DNA of 64,000 bases from Escherichia coli O157:H7 (GTDB lineage Bacteria > Pseudomonadota > Gammaproteobacteria > Enterobacterales > Enterobacteriaceae): NCBI RefSeq assembly GCF_013167455.1, contig NZ_CP038328.1. One strand, written 5' to 3'. Shown piece after piece: positions 39,101 to 42,100 of this stretch; positions within the stretch are counted from its first letter, which is position 1; each line of letters starts with the position of its first letter. Made by a program: the position numbers.

Positions 39101-42100
39101 GAATCTCTGGTGTGCGGTGGGCTTCATCATTGTTTTTAATGATGATTTTTCCGTAATTCATCGCCTGACGGGTAGTCGGGCTAATGAAGTCATCGCCATT
39201 CTGATAGTTATGTTCACCCACACCAACATAGGCCAGCACATGATCGGTATTGGTAATCGCCACCGCATCGGCGTGAATGTCATCGCGAATAATTTCACAA
39301 ACTTTGCGTAATGACTCGCTATTGACATGGCGAAACAGAGGTAGCGTTTTGTTGGCGATATCCAGCGCCAACTTGGCCTGCCGCGCGGCGCTGGCCTCTT
39401 TTTCGCCCTCAACGCTTTGCACTAGAAGCACAATAAAGCCGATACAGACGCTGCCGAGGATCATTGGAATCCCGATTTTAGAGACGATATCGATCCCCAA
39501 CGCGGTAGTTGGTGCCCAGACAATCACCAGAATCATGGTCAACGTTTCACACAACATGCCGCCGAGAATACCGACGCGCCAGCGCTGTGCTTTGGGGATT
39601 TTCAGGTTGATCCAGCCCGATATACAACCAGCCAGAATGCTGGTGATAAAGCAGGGGATCGCCGTCACGCCACCGATATCAATTAAATAACGATGAATAC
39701 CCGCAATCACGCCGGTAATGATGCCCACCCACGGGCCAAACAGAATCCCGCCGGACATCACCGCGATAATACGTACGTTCACCAGCGAGCCTTCTACGGG
39801 AACGCCGGACCAGGTGCTGAAGAGGGCGAACAGCGAGAAAATGGCGGTAACGGCGAGCAACTCTTTCGGTGAGTGTGCCGACTTGTGCAACAGTTCGCGA
39901 AACAGGCGGATACGGATGAGAAAGAACAGGCAGATAAGCATTAACGCTGCCCGATCGAAGACCGCCAGCAGCATGTTGAATATTTCGTGCACGGGTGACT
40001 CTGAATAAGGATTAAACCTCTATGATAGGTAACCTGAAGGCTGATGACCAGCAGGCCGTTTTTGAGGAAAAACCACAATTTTAAAAGGGGATTGATAGAT
40101 AAATGGTGTATTAGCAATGCATCTCTTGATAATGCACTTCTGGTTAGTAAATTTATTGAAATTATTATGTTAATAAAATGAGTGGTAATTTTCTTGTTAG
40201 CGCAGATAAATTTCCTGTTTTTAAAGCAGAGTTCCTCATTTAACGTCATTAATAAAAATGTTCTAAAACGCTGGACAGACAGAAATTAATCAGGCTATTT
40301 TCAAAACAGCCACCATCGTGGCAGCGTCGCTCGGACGGTCCGGGCGCTAACGTTAATCTGAGGAAATTATGGCTGACACTCGCCCTGAACGTCGCTTTAC
40401 GCGCATTGATCGTCTCCCGCCCTACGTTTTTAACATCACCGCTGAACTGAAAATGGCTGCGCGTCGGCGCGGCGAAGATATTATCGATTTCAGCATGGGT
40501 AACCCGGACGGTGCGACTCCGCCGCATATCGTCGAAAAATTATGTACTGTGGCCCAGCGTCCGGACACGCATGGTTACTCCACTTCACGCGGCATTCCGC
40601 GGTTACGTCGCGCCATTTCCCGCTGGTATCAGGATCGCTACGACGTTGAAATCGATCCGGAATCAGAAGCCATCGTCACCATTGGTTCGAAAGAAGGGCT
40701 GGCACACCTGATGCTGGCGACGCTGGATCATGGTGACACGGTGCTGGTGCCGAATCCAAGCTACCCGATCCATATTTATGGCGCGGTGATTGCCGGGGCG
40801 CAGGTACGCTCAGTGCCGCTGGTGGAAGGTGTCGATTTCTTCAACGAACTGGAGCGCGCCATTCTTGAAAGTTATCCGAAACCGAAGATGATGATCCTCG
40901 GCTTCCCGTCAAACCCAACCGCGCAATGCGTGGAACTGGAGTTCTTCGAAAAAGTAGTGGCGCTGGCGAAACGCTACGATGTGCTGGTGGTCCATGACCT
41001 GGCCTATGCCGATATCGTCTACGATGGCTGGAAAGCGCCGTCAATCATGCAGGTACCGGGTGCACGCGATGTGGCAGTCGAGTTCTTTACGCTGTCGAAA
41101 AGCTACAACATGGCGGGCTGGCGTATCGGCTTTATGGTCGGCAACAAAACGCTGGTCAGTGCCCTGGCGCGAATCAAAAGCTATCACGATTACGGCACTT
41201 TTACGCCGTTGCAGGTGGCGGCGATTGCGGCGCTGGAGGGCGATCAACAGTGCGTGCGCGACATTGCCGAACAGTACAAACGCCGCCGCGATGTATTGGT
41301 TAAAGGGCTGCATGAAGCGGGCTGGATGGTCGAAATGCCGAAGGCTTCGATGTATGTCTGGGCGAAAATCCCGGAACCATATGCGGCCATGGGATCGCTG
41401 GAATTTGCCAAGAAGCTCCTTAACGAAGCGAAGGTCTGTGTCTCTCCAGGGATTGGCTTTGGTGACTACGGCGACACGCATGTTCGCTTTGCACTGATTG
41501 AAAACCGCGACCGTATTCGTCAGGCGATTCGTGGGATTAAAGCGATGTTCCGTGCCGACGGTTTACTACCCGCCAGCAGCAAACATATTCACGAAAACGC
41601 GGAATAAACACCGTCGTCAGAAATGCAAACAGGAGCCTGATGGCTCCTGTTTTTCATTGCACAGTTTGCTTTTAGATCATCAGGGCAAAAGTACCGGCCC
41701 AAACGATGACCATAAAAGAAATGCCCATAAAGAAATATTTCACTTTACATCTCTCCGCGTAATTACGGTTACGCCTGAATGACTTCATCACACCTGATAC
41801 AGTGAGTTGACACCGGGCAAAACGACCTTAAAAGTCCTGTATTTTACCGTGGGCATCACCCCAGAATTCTGAGCTAAACTGCTCGAGACGGCGCTAATGT
41901 ACGCCTAAAACTGAAACGAGACAAGAGGCATTTTCTTATTTACTTTTAGTAACTTACAGGTGTCTCATATCGGCGACAGTTTAATTTCTGGCGGTAATAA
42001 TTAGATATTCAGCGAAGGAAAAAATCTTAAGAAAAAAGCCATAAAAACCATGAGGTTATTATGGCCGATTTGAGGAGGGAAAGAGTAAGAGCAGTTTGTT

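What the first reader, a model, noticed from the sequence alone, without database searches (positions are those of the whole stretch)
41744..42098. Feature-poor 355-bp spacer between lpxP and ypdK on the same strand
The minus-strand lpxP stop (42099) and the small ypdK ORF (41672..41743) are separated by 355 bp containing no ORF of 60 aa or more and no terminator I could recognise. This is long for an intra-operon spacer and could hold an unannotated small protein or sRNA; the track only lists ORFs of at least 60 aa, so small genes would be missed.
Basis: inference. Interest (0 to 1): 0.25.

Follow-up and report, generated by a model that had tools for sequence, protein, structure and literature searches.

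The report
lpxP terminator plus ypdK control region
The apparently empty 355-bp gap between lpxP and ypdK in E. coli holds the end signal of lpxP, then a strongly conserved, unannotated promoter region and folded leader RNA for the tiny membrane-protein gene ypdK; this probably explains an "orphan" binding site of the fatty-acid regulator FabR reported in Salmonella.

Summary
The gap is real: 355 bp, window 42098-41744, minus strand, and the same length in K-12. It is not an intra-operon spacer and it is not feature-poor.

**lpxP terminator.** lpxP ends in a clear intrinsic terminator (hairpin 42066-42037, U-tract to 42032). Published Term-seq maps an RNA 3' end exactly there.

**Conserved upstream block.** After a short non-conserved linker comes a roughly 130-bp block (about 42019-41886). 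It is 76-88% identical from Escherichia to Enterobacter, against 50-61% at third codon positions of the flanking genes. It stays with ypdK in genomes where lpxP is not upstream.

**ypdK promoter.** The block contains a -35/17 bp/-10 promoter (41924-41919 and 41901-41896). A published tiling-array transcript starts at 41891, 2 nt from my predicted start at 41889.

**ypdK leader.** The roughly 146-nt leader carries two helices supported by compensatory changes.

**Small genes.** No small ORF in the gap is conserved. No separate sense-strand sRNA is seen. The database sRNA candidate Tpke70 (opposite strand) overlaps only 64 nt of the gap.

**FabR.** A Salmonella ChIP study found FabR bound in this ddg/yfdZ intergenic region and could not explain it, with no mention of ypdK. 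ypdK is the likely target. However, no canonical FabR palindrome is present, so this step is inferred.

The parts
42037..42066 (-). lpxP intrinsic terminator hairpin (GGCCAUAAUAACC-UCAU-GGUUUUUAUGGCU)
   Evidence: The fold gives -15.8 kcal/mol, z = -6.0, with 0 of 200 shuffles folding as well. It begins 33 nt after the lpxP stop. Other genera carry a different hairpin plus T-run at the same place.
42032..42037 (-). U-tract of the lpxP terminator; the mapped RNA 3' end is at 42032
   Evidence: The Term-seq 3' end in K-12 is at 2496632 (+), in the supplement of Adams et al. 2021 (PMC7815308). Conversion is window = 42099-(x-2496565). The K-12 and O157 gaps align without gaps.
42035..42470 (+). 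Tpke70, a 436-nt database sRNA candidate. Its first 64 nt lie in the gap and the rest is antisense to the lpxP 3' coding region.
   Evidence: The sequence is given in the supplement of PMC6172242 and maps to these coordinates by eye. It is named as gene G0-8906 in the annotation used by the Term-seq tables. It is absent from the RefSeq K-12 feature table. I found no expression evidence for it.
42022..42031 (-). Short non-conserved linker between the terminator and the conserved block
   Evidence: Column identity is about 0.5 here. The 77 bp nearest lpxP align over only 17-27% of their length outside Escherichia.
41925..42019 (-). Conserved upstream regulatory DNA of ypdK: CGTCGCT, ATTTATTAC, GAAAT-AAACTGTCGCCG-N-CGACAC, GTAAGT, then an A/T-rich tract next to the -35
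   Evidence: Long invariant runs appear in 20 genomes that were found through LpxP. Identity is 0.77-0.89 in 15-nt windows. The block is retained upstream of ypdK where lpxP is not the upstream gene.
41951..41968 (-). Candidate FabR site 1, ATGAGACACCTGTAAGTT. It fits the published core ACAnnTGTnnnnT.
   Evidence: This is the best match in the gap to a position weight matrix built from the K-12 fabA, fabB and yqfA sites. The score is only 3.7 bits, rank 45 in the 64-kb window. The core motif comes from PMC4804515. The TGT is CGT in Enterobacter.
41919..41924 (-). Predicted -35 hexamer of the ypdK promoter (TTGTCT; TTGTCA in most other genera)
   Evidence: CTTG is invariant, and the 17-bp distance to the -10 is fixed in all 67 sequences while the spacer sequence varies. 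The generic scan independently reports TTGTCA-17-TACATT at the homologous place in Enterobacter.
41886..41908 (-). Most conserved segment, TTAGGCGTACATTAGCGCCGTCT. It contains the -10 TACATT (41901-41896), a GC-rich discriminator, and candidate FabR site 2 (GGCGTACA, 41905-41898).
   Evidence: It is invariant in the 20 genomes apart from two positions. GGCGTACA equals the left half-site of the K-12 fabB FabR operator. However, the 8-mer occurs 3 times in the 64-kb window against about 2 expected, and the full 18-mer scores -1.9 bits.
41889..41891 (-). ypdK transcription start: predicted at 41889; published transcript boundary at 41891
   Evidence: The tiling-array transcript is 2494795-2494997 (U00096.2, + strand) and overlaps ypdK (PMC3009722 File S3). 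The +1978 offset is taken from ypdK's own coordinates. Array resolution is about 7 nt in intergenic regions.
41744..41888 (-). ypdK 5' untranslated leader, about 146 nt
   Evidence: It runs from the transcript start to the annotated GTG. There is no terminator-like site in between. Rfam has no family match; the best E-value is 0.063 and that hit is spurious.
41862..41871 (-). Nearly invariant palindrome CAGAATTCTG at +19 to +28 of the leader. It could be an operator or an RNA motif; which one is undecided.
41804..41862 (-). Leader helix P2 (41862-41852 pairs with 41814-41804). It encloses a variable apical hairpin that is deleted in several taxa.
   Evidence: RNAalifold predicts it. Of its 10 pairs, 6 show changes on both sides and 96.4% of cells are paired. 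The single-sequence E. coli fold gives the same helix.
41758..41773 (-). Leader helix P3 (GCGUA...UACGC), ending 1 nt before the Shine-Dalgarno GGAG (41756-41753)
   Evidence: 99.6% of cells are paired and 2 of 4 pairs show changes on both sides.
41672..41743 (-). ypdK, a 23-aa membrane protein with a GTG start
   Evidence: It matches NCBIfam NF033437 YpdK (equivalog) at 57.5 bits against a cutoff of 30. RefSeq annotates it. A GTG start is present in all 28 syntenic loci.
41623..41662 (-). ypdK terminator (shared, convergent with alaC); the mapped 3' end is at 41624
   Evidence: The fold gives -20.9 kcal/mol, z = -5.0. The Term-seq 'primary' 3' end for ypdK is at K-12 2497040.

Best explanation
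The gap is the junction of two separate transcription units.

1. lpxP transcription stops at a Rho-independent terminator 33-67 nt after its stop codon.
2. About 140 bp further on, ypdK has its own sigma-70-type promoter. It has a -35 TTGTCT, a 17-bp spacer, a -10 TACATT and a GC-rich discriminator. Immediately upstream lies about 95 bp of strongly conserved DNA that most likely binds regulators.
3. Transcription starts near window 41889. The product is a roughly 268-nt mRNA. Its 146-nt leader folds into a long conserved hairpin (P2) and a short stem (P3) that abuts the ribosome-binding site. The 23-codon ypdK ORF and a terminator shared with alaC follow.

Shown, by sequence here plus published transcript mapping: the terminator, the independent transcript start, selection on the block, linkage of the block to ypdK rather than lpxP, and the leader helices.

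Inferred: the block is the in vivo FabR-binding site that was found in the Salmonella ddg/yfdZ intergenic region. On that reading, ypdK is repressed by FabR, the regulator of unsaturated fatty-acid synthesis, through a non-canonical site that overlaps or flanks the promoter. I put this FabR step alone at about 0.45.
For: **Terminator.** The hairpin plus U6 folds at -15.8 kcal/mol with z = -6. Term-seq places a 3' end on the last U. Enterobacter, Citrobacter and Salmonella carry unrelated hairpin-plus-T-run sequences at the same position.

**Independent promoter.** CTTG and TACATT are invariant and the 17-bp spacing is fixed over a variable spacer. The scan tool finds TTGTCA-17-TACATT in Enterobacter. 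A published strand-specific tiling-array transcript begins at K-12 2496773, which is window 41891. That is 2 nt from the start predicted from sequence alone, on an array with about 7-nt resolution. The ypdK 3' end is mapped.

**Selection.** The 165-bp core is 0.76-0.88 identical between E. coli and Citrobacter, Salmonella, Enterobacter and Leclercia. Third codon positions of lpxP and alaC are 0.50-0.61 identical.

**Linkage to ypdK.**
- In the C. freundii complex, a 204-aa gene on the opposite strand sits between lpxP and the block.
- In at least ten metagenomic contigs, the block, ypdK and alaC are present with no lpxP upstream.

**Leader RNA.** 97.3% of cells are paired, against 34-53% when partners are slid. 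Eight pairs have changes on both sides, and 0 of 500 shuffles reach the observed score. Many G-U pairs make the fit strand-specific: 97% on the sense strand against 83% on the opposite strand.

**FabR.** ChIP-chip and ChIP-qPCR in S. Typhimurium found FabR in the ddg/yfdZ intergenic region. The authors judged regulation unlikely because ddg and yfdZ converge (PMC4804515). ypdK and the block are present in Salmonella enterica subsp. arizonae. The block contains the published core motif ACAnnTGTnnnnT and the fabB half-site GGCGTACA.
Against: **Transcription start.**
- It rests on an array boundary, not on a single-nucleotide 5'-triphosphate map.
- The TSS tables I could reach held nothing for this locus or were truncated.
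- In E. coli the promoter matches only 8 of 12 consensus positions, and the scan tool did not report it.

**Read-through.** Some read-through from lpxP cannot be excluded.

**FabR.**
- No canonical 18-bp FabR palindrome is present. The best position-weight-matrix score is 3.7 bits, rank 45 in 64 kb.
- The GGCGTACA 8-mer is no rarer than chance in the window.
- ChIP fragments were about 800 bp, so the site is not localised.
- ChIP was done in Salmonella, not E. coli.
- No expression data for ypdK in a fabR mutant were found.

**Ascertainment.** The metagenomic sequences were selected with a 19-mer from the block. Its invariance in alignments A2 and A3 is therefore partly by construction. Alignment A1 (20 genomes found through LpxP) is the unbiased set.
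Confidence: 0.82

Rival explanations
1. lpxP and ypdK form one operon, and the gap is a long intra-operon spacer. On this reading ypdK is expressed mainly by read-through from the cold-induced lpxP promoter.
For: The two genes lie on the same strand and are adjacent in Escherichia, Salmonella, Citrobacter and Enterobacter. The gap length is fairly constant at 324-435 bp in most of them. The terminator stem is AU-rich, so it may leak.
Against: A mapped 3' end sits at the terminator U-tract. The detected transcript begins 141 nt downstream of that end and does not start at lpxP. The block and ypdK are kept where lpxP is elsewhere. In the C. freundii complex a gene on the opposite strand is inserted in between.
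Confidence: 0.08
2. The conserved block is an independent small RNA gene, either on the sense strand or on the opposite strand (Tpke70 or another antisense RNA).
For: A candidate sRNA, Tpke70, is listed at 42035-42470 on the plus strand. A plus-strand promoter-like site, GCGACA-17-AATAAT, lies at 41973-42001 and points toward it. The region is conserved and structured.
Against: - Tpke70 covers only the terminator hairpin inside the gap and not the conserved block.
- The AATAAT -10 is specific to E. coli; other genera have AATAAA.
- The covarying helices fit the sense strand better, 97% against 83%.
- The sense transcript continues into ypdK with no terminator in between.
- Rfam has no match.
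Confidence: 0.06
3. The gap hides an unannotated small protein gene, or ypdK is longer than annotated.
For: E. coli has several ORFs of 8-23 codons in the gap. It also has an in-frame upstream GTG/ATG (41791/41788) that would extend YpdK to 39 or 38 aa.
Against: - Across 66 other sequences, no ORF of 8 codons or more is kept intact in more than 5, apart from one case.
- That case is an 8-codon ORF (41931-41905), intact in 32 of 66. It lacks a Shine-Dalgarno sequence, lies upstream of the transcript start, and overlaps the -35. Its frame is preserved simply because the promoter spacer has a fixed length.
- The YpdK extension is intact in 0 of 66, and most taxa have an in-frame TGA two codons before the GTG.
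- A ribosome-profiling supplement gave no hit here, but the stored file was cut.
Confidence: 0.03
4. The block is the ypdK promoter region, but a factor other than FabR controls it. On this reading the Salmonella FabR ChIP signal comes from elsewhere in the roughly 1-kb region or has no regulatory consequence.
For: The canonical FabR palindrome is absent. The block carries other symmetric elements, TGTCG-N8-CGACA and CAGAATTCTG, that resemble no FabR site. The transcript was UV-induced about 2-fold. The ChIP authors themselves considered non-functional binding.
Against: The block is the only conserved non-coding DNA between ddg and yfdZ. ChIP-qPCR confirmed the enrichment under three growth conditions. 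The published core motif is present there.
Confidence: 0.4

Closest known systems
Rho-independent (intrinsic) terminators of E. coli
   Same: It has a hairpin followed directly by a U-tract, lies just downstream of a stop codon, and has an RNA 3' end mapped in the U-tract.
   Different: The stem is AU-rich and interrupted by one mismatch, so a simple consensus scan misses it. The sequence is not conserved between genera; only the position and type are.
fabA and fabB promoters (FadR/FabR-controlled sigma-70 promoters of unsaturated fatty-acid synthesis)
   Same: FabR occupancy of the region in vivo is reported in Salmonella. The region shares the fabB half-site GGCGTACA and the core ACAnnTGTnnnnT. 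The candidate sites lie at or next to the core promoter. The neighbouring gene, lpxP, uses palmitoleoyl-ACP, an unsaturated acyl donor.
   Different: In fabA and fabB an 18-bp palindrome fills the -35/-10 spacer exactly. Here there is no full palindrome. The half-site straddles the -10, and the second candidate lies at about -79 to -62. No FadR-like site was recognised. Regulation has not been tested.
Small-protein mRNAs with long structured leaders, and cis-acting 5' UTR elements such as the lpxP and cspA-type RNA thermometers
   Same: A long leader (146 nt) precedes a very short ORF. It carries helices conserved through compensatory changes, one of them ending right at the ribosome-binding site.
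   Different: There is no Rfam family and no evidence of alternative conformations. The Shine-Dalgarno sequence is not inside a conserved helix. An anti-SD pairing I considered is not conserved in E. coli or Enterobacter. The published lpxP thermometer lies upstream of lpxP, not in this gap.
Tpke70 (candidate sRNA in E. coli sRNA lists; the source paper cites it as its reference 44, which from memory is Rivas et al. 2001)
   Same: It lies at the same locus and overlaps the first 64 nt of the gap.
   Different: It is on the opposite strand and is mostly antisense to the lpxP coding sequence. It does not cover the conserved block. Its ends appear to be computational. RefSeq does not annotate it.

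Membership tests
Intrinsic terminator | Stable hairpin immediately followed by a run of U | tested here: met
   The fold gives -15.8 kcal/mol, z = -6.0, followed by UUUUUU.
Intrinsic terminator | RNA 3' end in the U-tract in vivo | tested here: met
   The published Term-seq 3' end at K-12 2496632 converts to window 42032. This is literature data read here, not an experiment of mine.
Sigma-70 promoter | -35 and -10 hexamers with 16-18 bp spacing | tested here: met
   E. coli has TTGTCT-17-TACATT, 8 of 12 consensus positions. Enterobacter has TTGTCA-17-TACATT, 9 of 12, reported by the scan tool. The spacing is fixed in 67 sequences.
Sigma-70 promoter | Primary transcript 5' end 6-8 nt downstream of the -10 | tested here: inconclusive
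   The tiling-array transcript boundary at window 41891 lies 5 nt after the -10. The array resolution is about 7 nt, and there is no 5'-triphosphate evidence.
FabR operator / FabR regulon | 18-bp palindrome of the type AGCGTACAnnTGTACGCT | tested here: not met
   The best 18-mer scores 3.7 bits, against 23-27 bits for the three known sites, and ranks 45 in 64 kb. Only a half-site and the ACAnnTGT core are present.
FabR operator / FabR regulon | FabR occupancy in vivo | not testable with these tools
   ChIP-chip and ChIP-qPCR reported it for the S. Typhimurium ddg/yfdZ intergenic region (PMC4804515). No E. coli data were found.
FabR operator / FabR regulon | Target gene derepressed in a fabR mutant | not testable with these tools
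   The Salmonella paper does not mention ypdK (no hit in the full-text search). No data on ypdK expression in a fabR mutant were found.
Trans-acting small RNA gene | Discrete transcript with its own promoter and terminator, not continuous with a coding gene | tested here: not met
   The sense transcript runs into ypdK with no terminator in between. No Rfam family matches. Tpke70 on the other strand was not verified.
Small protein gene (fewer than 50 codons) | ORF with start, frame and stop conserved across genera, plus a ribosome-binding site | tested here: not met
   No ORF in the gap is conserved. ypdK itself meets the test: a GTG start in all 28 loci and a match to NF033437.
Cis-regulatory 5' UTR RNA element | Secondary structure maintained by compensatory substitutions | tested here: met
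   Of 14 pairs, 8 have changes on both sides. 97.3% of cells are paired, against at most 53% in slid controls.
Cis-regulatory 5' UTR RNA element | Structure controls translation or termination in response to a signal | not testable with these tools
   No conserved alternative pairing or sequestration of the Shine-Dalgarno sequence was found by inspection.

The most novel reading that the evidence does not exclude
ypdK is a previously unrecognised member of the FabR regulon. Its 23-aa membrane protein would be switched on when FabR repression is lifted, through a non-canonical operator at its promoter. Its conserved structured leader would add a second, post-transcriptional layer of control. 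Sitting next to lpxP, the palmitoleoyl transferase, YpdK would then be a small-protein component of membrane-lipid homeostasis. This reading would also resolve the 'orphan' FabR ChIP peak between the convergent genes ddg and yfdZ.
Probability: 0.3. Interest if true: 0.6.

Novelty: new member of a known kind. Interest (0 to 1): 0.36.

Why it matters
YpdK is one of the E. coli small membrane proteins with no known function.

This analysis shows three things about it. It has its own deeply conserved control region. That region travels with ypdK across Enterobacteriaceae. And it coincides with an unexplained in vivo FabR-binding site.

Together these give a concrete, cheap experiment that could place YpdK in unsaturated-fatty-acid and membrane homeostasis: a ypdK reporter in a fabR mutant, and a FabR footprint on a 160-bp fragment.

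There are also two corrections for annotation. lpxP and ypdK should not be treated as an operon. And the Tpke70 entry, as listed, does not account for the conserved sequence at this locus.

Tried and rejected
**No support found in the sequence**
- ARAGORN: no tRNA or tRNA-like gene, despite an 'AGTTTAGCTCAG' string that looked like a D-arm.
- Rfam at E-values up to 10: only spurious hits such as plastid psbJ and snoRNAs.
- Alternative sigma factors and transcription factors, compared by eye with consensus sequences recalled from memory: sigma-E, sigma-54, sigma-28, CpxR, PhoB, ArcA, OmpR, LexA and FadR. None gave a match conserved across genera.
- A second promoter at the TATAAT/TATACT seen near 41800 in Enterobacter and Citrobacter. 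It is degenerate in E. coli and the C. freundii complex, and no usable -35 is present.
- Anti-SD pairing of CUCUC (about 41806-41802) with GGAGAG. It is not conserved in E. coli or Enterobacter.
- A 5'-proximal leader hairpin (GAGC/GCUC, 41884-41869). It is present in Escherichia, Citrobacter and some other taxa but not in Enterobacter, so it is not claimed.
- A FabR position weight matrix with the central 2 bp removed. It gave no good hit in the gap.

**Literature look-ups that gave nothing**
- Transcription-start and ribosome-profiling supplements were empty, truncated or not held: Stringer 2021, Weaver 2019, SMRT-Cappable-seq, Cappable-seq and Conway 2014.
- The Hemm 2008 and 2010 papers, the EcoSal small-proteome review and Thomason 2015 are not held.
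Full report
**Origin and observation**

The window matches E. coli O157:H7 at 100% identity, and the stretch is present in 5,422 of 5,426 complete E. coli genomes. On the minus strand, lpxP ends with TAA at 42101-42099. ypdK (23 codons, GTG start) occupies 41743-41672. The gap is 355 bp. RefSeq shows nothing between the two genes in the identical O157 genome or in K-12, where the gap is 2496566-2496920. No ORF of 60 aa or more lies inside it. The 'no terminator' and 'feature-poor' statements are not.

**lpxP terminator**

Thirty-three nucleotides after the lpxP stop, the RNA can form GGCCAUAAUAACC-UCAU-GGUUUUUAUGGCU followed by UUUUUU. This is window 42066-42032. The fold gives -15.8 kcal/mol, z = -6.0, with 0 of 200 shuffles folding as well. 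The consensus scan missed it because the stem is interrupted.

The supplement of Adams et al. 2021 (PMC7815308) lists a Term-seq 3' end at K-12 2496632 (+). It also quotes exactly this sequence. The K-12 and O157 gaps align without gaps, so that position is window 42032, the last U.

Enterobacter, Citrobacter and Salmonella carry unrelated hairpin-plus-T-run sequences at the same place. One example is AAGGTTAGTTTCGCTAAGAAACTAACCTTTTC. A terminator is therefore conserved by position, not by sequence.

**Conservation**

I fetched lpxP loci from GTDB species genomes. The arrangement lpxP > ypdK < alaC occurs in Escherichia, Citrobacter, Salmonella, Enterobacter, Lelliottia, Leclercia and Pseudenterobacter. 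Aligning 20 of these gaps gave the following:
- The lpxP-proximal 77 bp are not conserved outside Escherichia.
- From about 42019 to 41857 there are long invariant runs.
- The peak is TTAGGCGTACATTAGCGCCGTCT (41908-41886), with identity 0.94-1.0.

Between E. coli and the other genera, the 165-bp core is 0.76-0.88 identical over 77-97% of its length. Third codon positions of lpxP and alaC are only 0.50-0.61 identical. This is not neutral intergenic sequence.

**The block belongs to ypdK**

In the C. freundii complex the gap is about 1,000 bp. A 204-aa gene on the opposite strand, with a signal-peptide-like N-terminus, sits between lpxP and the block. The block keeps its distance to ypdK.

A metagenome scan with a 19-mer from the block returned 120 contigs. 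In at least ten of them the block, ypdK and alaC are present with no lpxP upstream. Three other matches were chance hits in unrelated GC-rich DNA (L111, L177, L195).

One caveat applies. These contigs were selected with that 19-mer, so its invariance in the 67-sequence alignments is partly by construction. The 20-genome alignment A1 is unbiased.

**Promoter and transcript start**

Within the block, CTTGTC(T/A) and TACATT are separated by exactly 17 bp in every sequence. The spacer sequence itself varies. An A/T-rich tract precedes the -35, and a GC-rich AGCGCC follows the -10. The generic scan reports TTGTCA-17-TACATT at the homologous position in Enterobacter. In E. coli the match is 8 of 12, just under the tool's threshold. 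From the sequence I predicted a start at window 41889, which is K-12 2496775.

Independently, File S3 of Thomassen et al. 2010 (PMC3009722) lists a strand-specific tiling-array transcript at 2494795-2494997 in U00096.2 coordinates. It overlaps ypdK and was induced about 2-fold by UV. ypdK's own coordinates give an offset of +1978. The transcript therefore starts at 2496773, window 41891, 2 nt from the prediction. The array resolves about 7 nt in intergenic regions.

Term-seq gives the ypdK 3' end at 2497040, window 41624. This sits behind a -20.9 kcal/mol hairpin shared with convergent alaC. ypdK is thus a roughly 268-nt monocistronic mRNA with a roughly 146-nt leader. The 141 bp between the lpxP 3' end and this start are promoter and regulatory DNA.

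**Leader structure**

RNAalifold was run on 67 non-redundant leaders of at most 97% mutual identity. It predicts:
- a long helix, P2, in which 41862-41852 pairs with 41814-41804. It encloses a variable apical hairpin that several taxa have lost.
- a 4-bp stem, P3 (41773-41770 with 41761-41758), ending one base before the Shine-Dalgarno GGAG.

Counting pairs gives 97.3% standard pairs, against 34-53% when the partners are slid. Eight of 14 pairs have changes on both sides, for example UA/CG at 35:31 sequences and AU/UA/UG at 32:14:14. None of 500 shuffles reaches the observed score. Because many pairs are G-U, the fit is 97% on the ypdK strand and 83% on the other. The single-sequence E. coli fold finds the same helices.

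What the leader does is unknown. I found no conserved alternative pairing that would hide the ribosome-binding site. Rfam has no family for it.

**Small ORFs and sRNAs**

I mapped every E. coli ORF of 8 codons or more in the gap, on both strands, onto the 67-sequence alignment.
- None is intact in more than 5 of 66 other sequences, with one exception.
- The exception is an 8-codon ORF at 41931-41905, intact in 32 of 66. It has no Shine-Dalgarno sequence, lies upstream of the transcript start, and overlaps the -35. The fixed promoter spacing explains why its frame is kept.
- The E. coli-specific in-frame extension of ypdK to 38-39 aa is intact in 0 of 66.

On the plus strand, the annotation used by the Term-seq tables names an sRNA called tpke70. 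Its 436-nt sequence is in the supplement of PMC6172242 and maps to window 42035-42470. That is the terminator hairpin plus the antisense of the lpxP 3' coding region. It does not cover the conserved block, and RefSeq does not carry it. I found no expression evidence for it. A weak plus-strand promoter-like site (41973-42001) points toward it, but its -10 is good only in E. coli.

**FabR**

The invariant GGCGTACA reminded me of the FabR operator, so I checked.

*Known operators.* The K-12 sites are:
- GGCGTACAAGTGTACGCT for fabB
- AGCGTACACGTGTTAGCT for fabA
- AGCTAACAGGTGTTCACT for yqfA/trhA

In fabA and fabB the site fills the -35/-10 spacer.

*Published binding.* Hermans et al. 2016 (PMC4804515) reported FabR bound in vivo in the S. 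Typhimurium ddg/yfdZ intergenic region. The evidence was ChIP-chip, confirmed by ChIP-qPCR under three growth conditions. They called regulation unlikely because ddg and yfdZ converge. Their proposed core motif is ACAnnTGTnnnnT. The paper does not mention ypdK: it was not among the 14 papers found by a full-text search for that name. ypdK and the block are present in S. enterica subsp. arizonae. The block is the only conserved non-coding DNA in that interval. ypdK is therefore the obvious candidate target.

*Weak motif evidence.* The motif evidence in the sequence is weak, and I state it as such:
- The best 18-mer, ATGAGACACCTGTAAGTT at 41968-41951, fits the published core. It scores only 3.7 bits, against 23-27 for the real sites, and ranks 45th in the window.
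- The segment overlapping the -10 scores -1.9 bits.
- GGCGTACA occurs three times in 64 kb against about two expected.

Membership in the FabR operator family is not met on the palindrome criterion. The functional link rests on the published ChIP result plus location.

**Verdict**

The gap consists of ordinary kinds of element: a terminator, a promoter region and a leader. These explain its length, so the 'long operon spacer hiding a gene' reading falls. What remains of interest is an unannotated, deeply conserved control region and structured leader for a small protein of unknown function. There is also a plausible, untested link to FabR that would explain a published orphan binding site.

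My confidence in the architecture is about 0.8. My confidence in FabR control of ypdK is about 0.45.

Noticed in passing
window 41745-41750 (minus strand): In Escherichia the sequence between the Shine-Dalgarno and the ypdK GTG reads ATG-TAA, a start codon followed directly by a stop. Most other genera have ATGAAACGTG, which opens a long out-of-frame ORF over ypdK. A few taxa lack the ATG altogether. I do not know whether this mini-ORF affects ypdK initiation.
   Followed up: partly
L005:3963-4577 (minus strand of locus); same in L006-L009, L011, L012: In the Citrobacter freundii complex, a 204-aa ORF lies between lpxP and the conserved ypdK block on the opposite strand. Its N-terminus looks like a signal peptide (MKRLKMTRLMMLALVFTPLTSMAAS...). 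I did not identify the protein.
   Followed up: no
window up to about 39990 (L001:1-1393): RefSeq marks ypdA/pyrS, the sensor kinase next to alaC, as a frameshifted pseudogene in the identical O157:H7 genome. It is intact in K-12.
   Followed up: no
window about 42418 (K-12 2496246, inside lpxP): The Adams et al. tables list a 3' end internal to lpxP in the file I took to be the Rho-dependent (bicyclomycin-sensitive) set. They also list a 3' end 85 nt upstream of the lpxP start, at K-12 2495560. The second is consistent with the published lpxP 5' UTR thermometer region.
   Followed up: no
window 41963-41980 (minus strand); L016:4044-4061: An inverted repeat, TGTCG-N8-CGACA, is conserved in the block. 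E. coli has only TGTC-N10-GACA. In Enterobacter the scan tool calls it terminator-like on the opposite strand because a T-rich run follows it. It could be a protein-binding palindrome or a weak antisense terminator.
   Followed up: partly
L137:1-60 and L191:274-400: In two metagenomic contigs the ypdK leader breaks off after CAGAATTCTG (L137) or further on in the leader (L191) and continues into unrelated sequence. This could be an insertion, a rearrangement or an assembly chimera.
   Followed up: no
L150 (Leclercia-like contig): Here lpxP lies about 2.8 kb upstream of the block instead of about 0.2 kb. This suggests a second, independent insertion between lpxP and the ypdK control region.
   Followed up: no
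window 41717-41743 (first 9 codons of ypdK): The first 26 nt of the ypdK coding sequence, GTGAAATATTTCTTTATGGGCATTTC, are almost invariant at synonymous sites too, across all genera. This suggests a constraint beyond the protein sequence, for example on the initiation region or on RNA structure.
   Followed up: no
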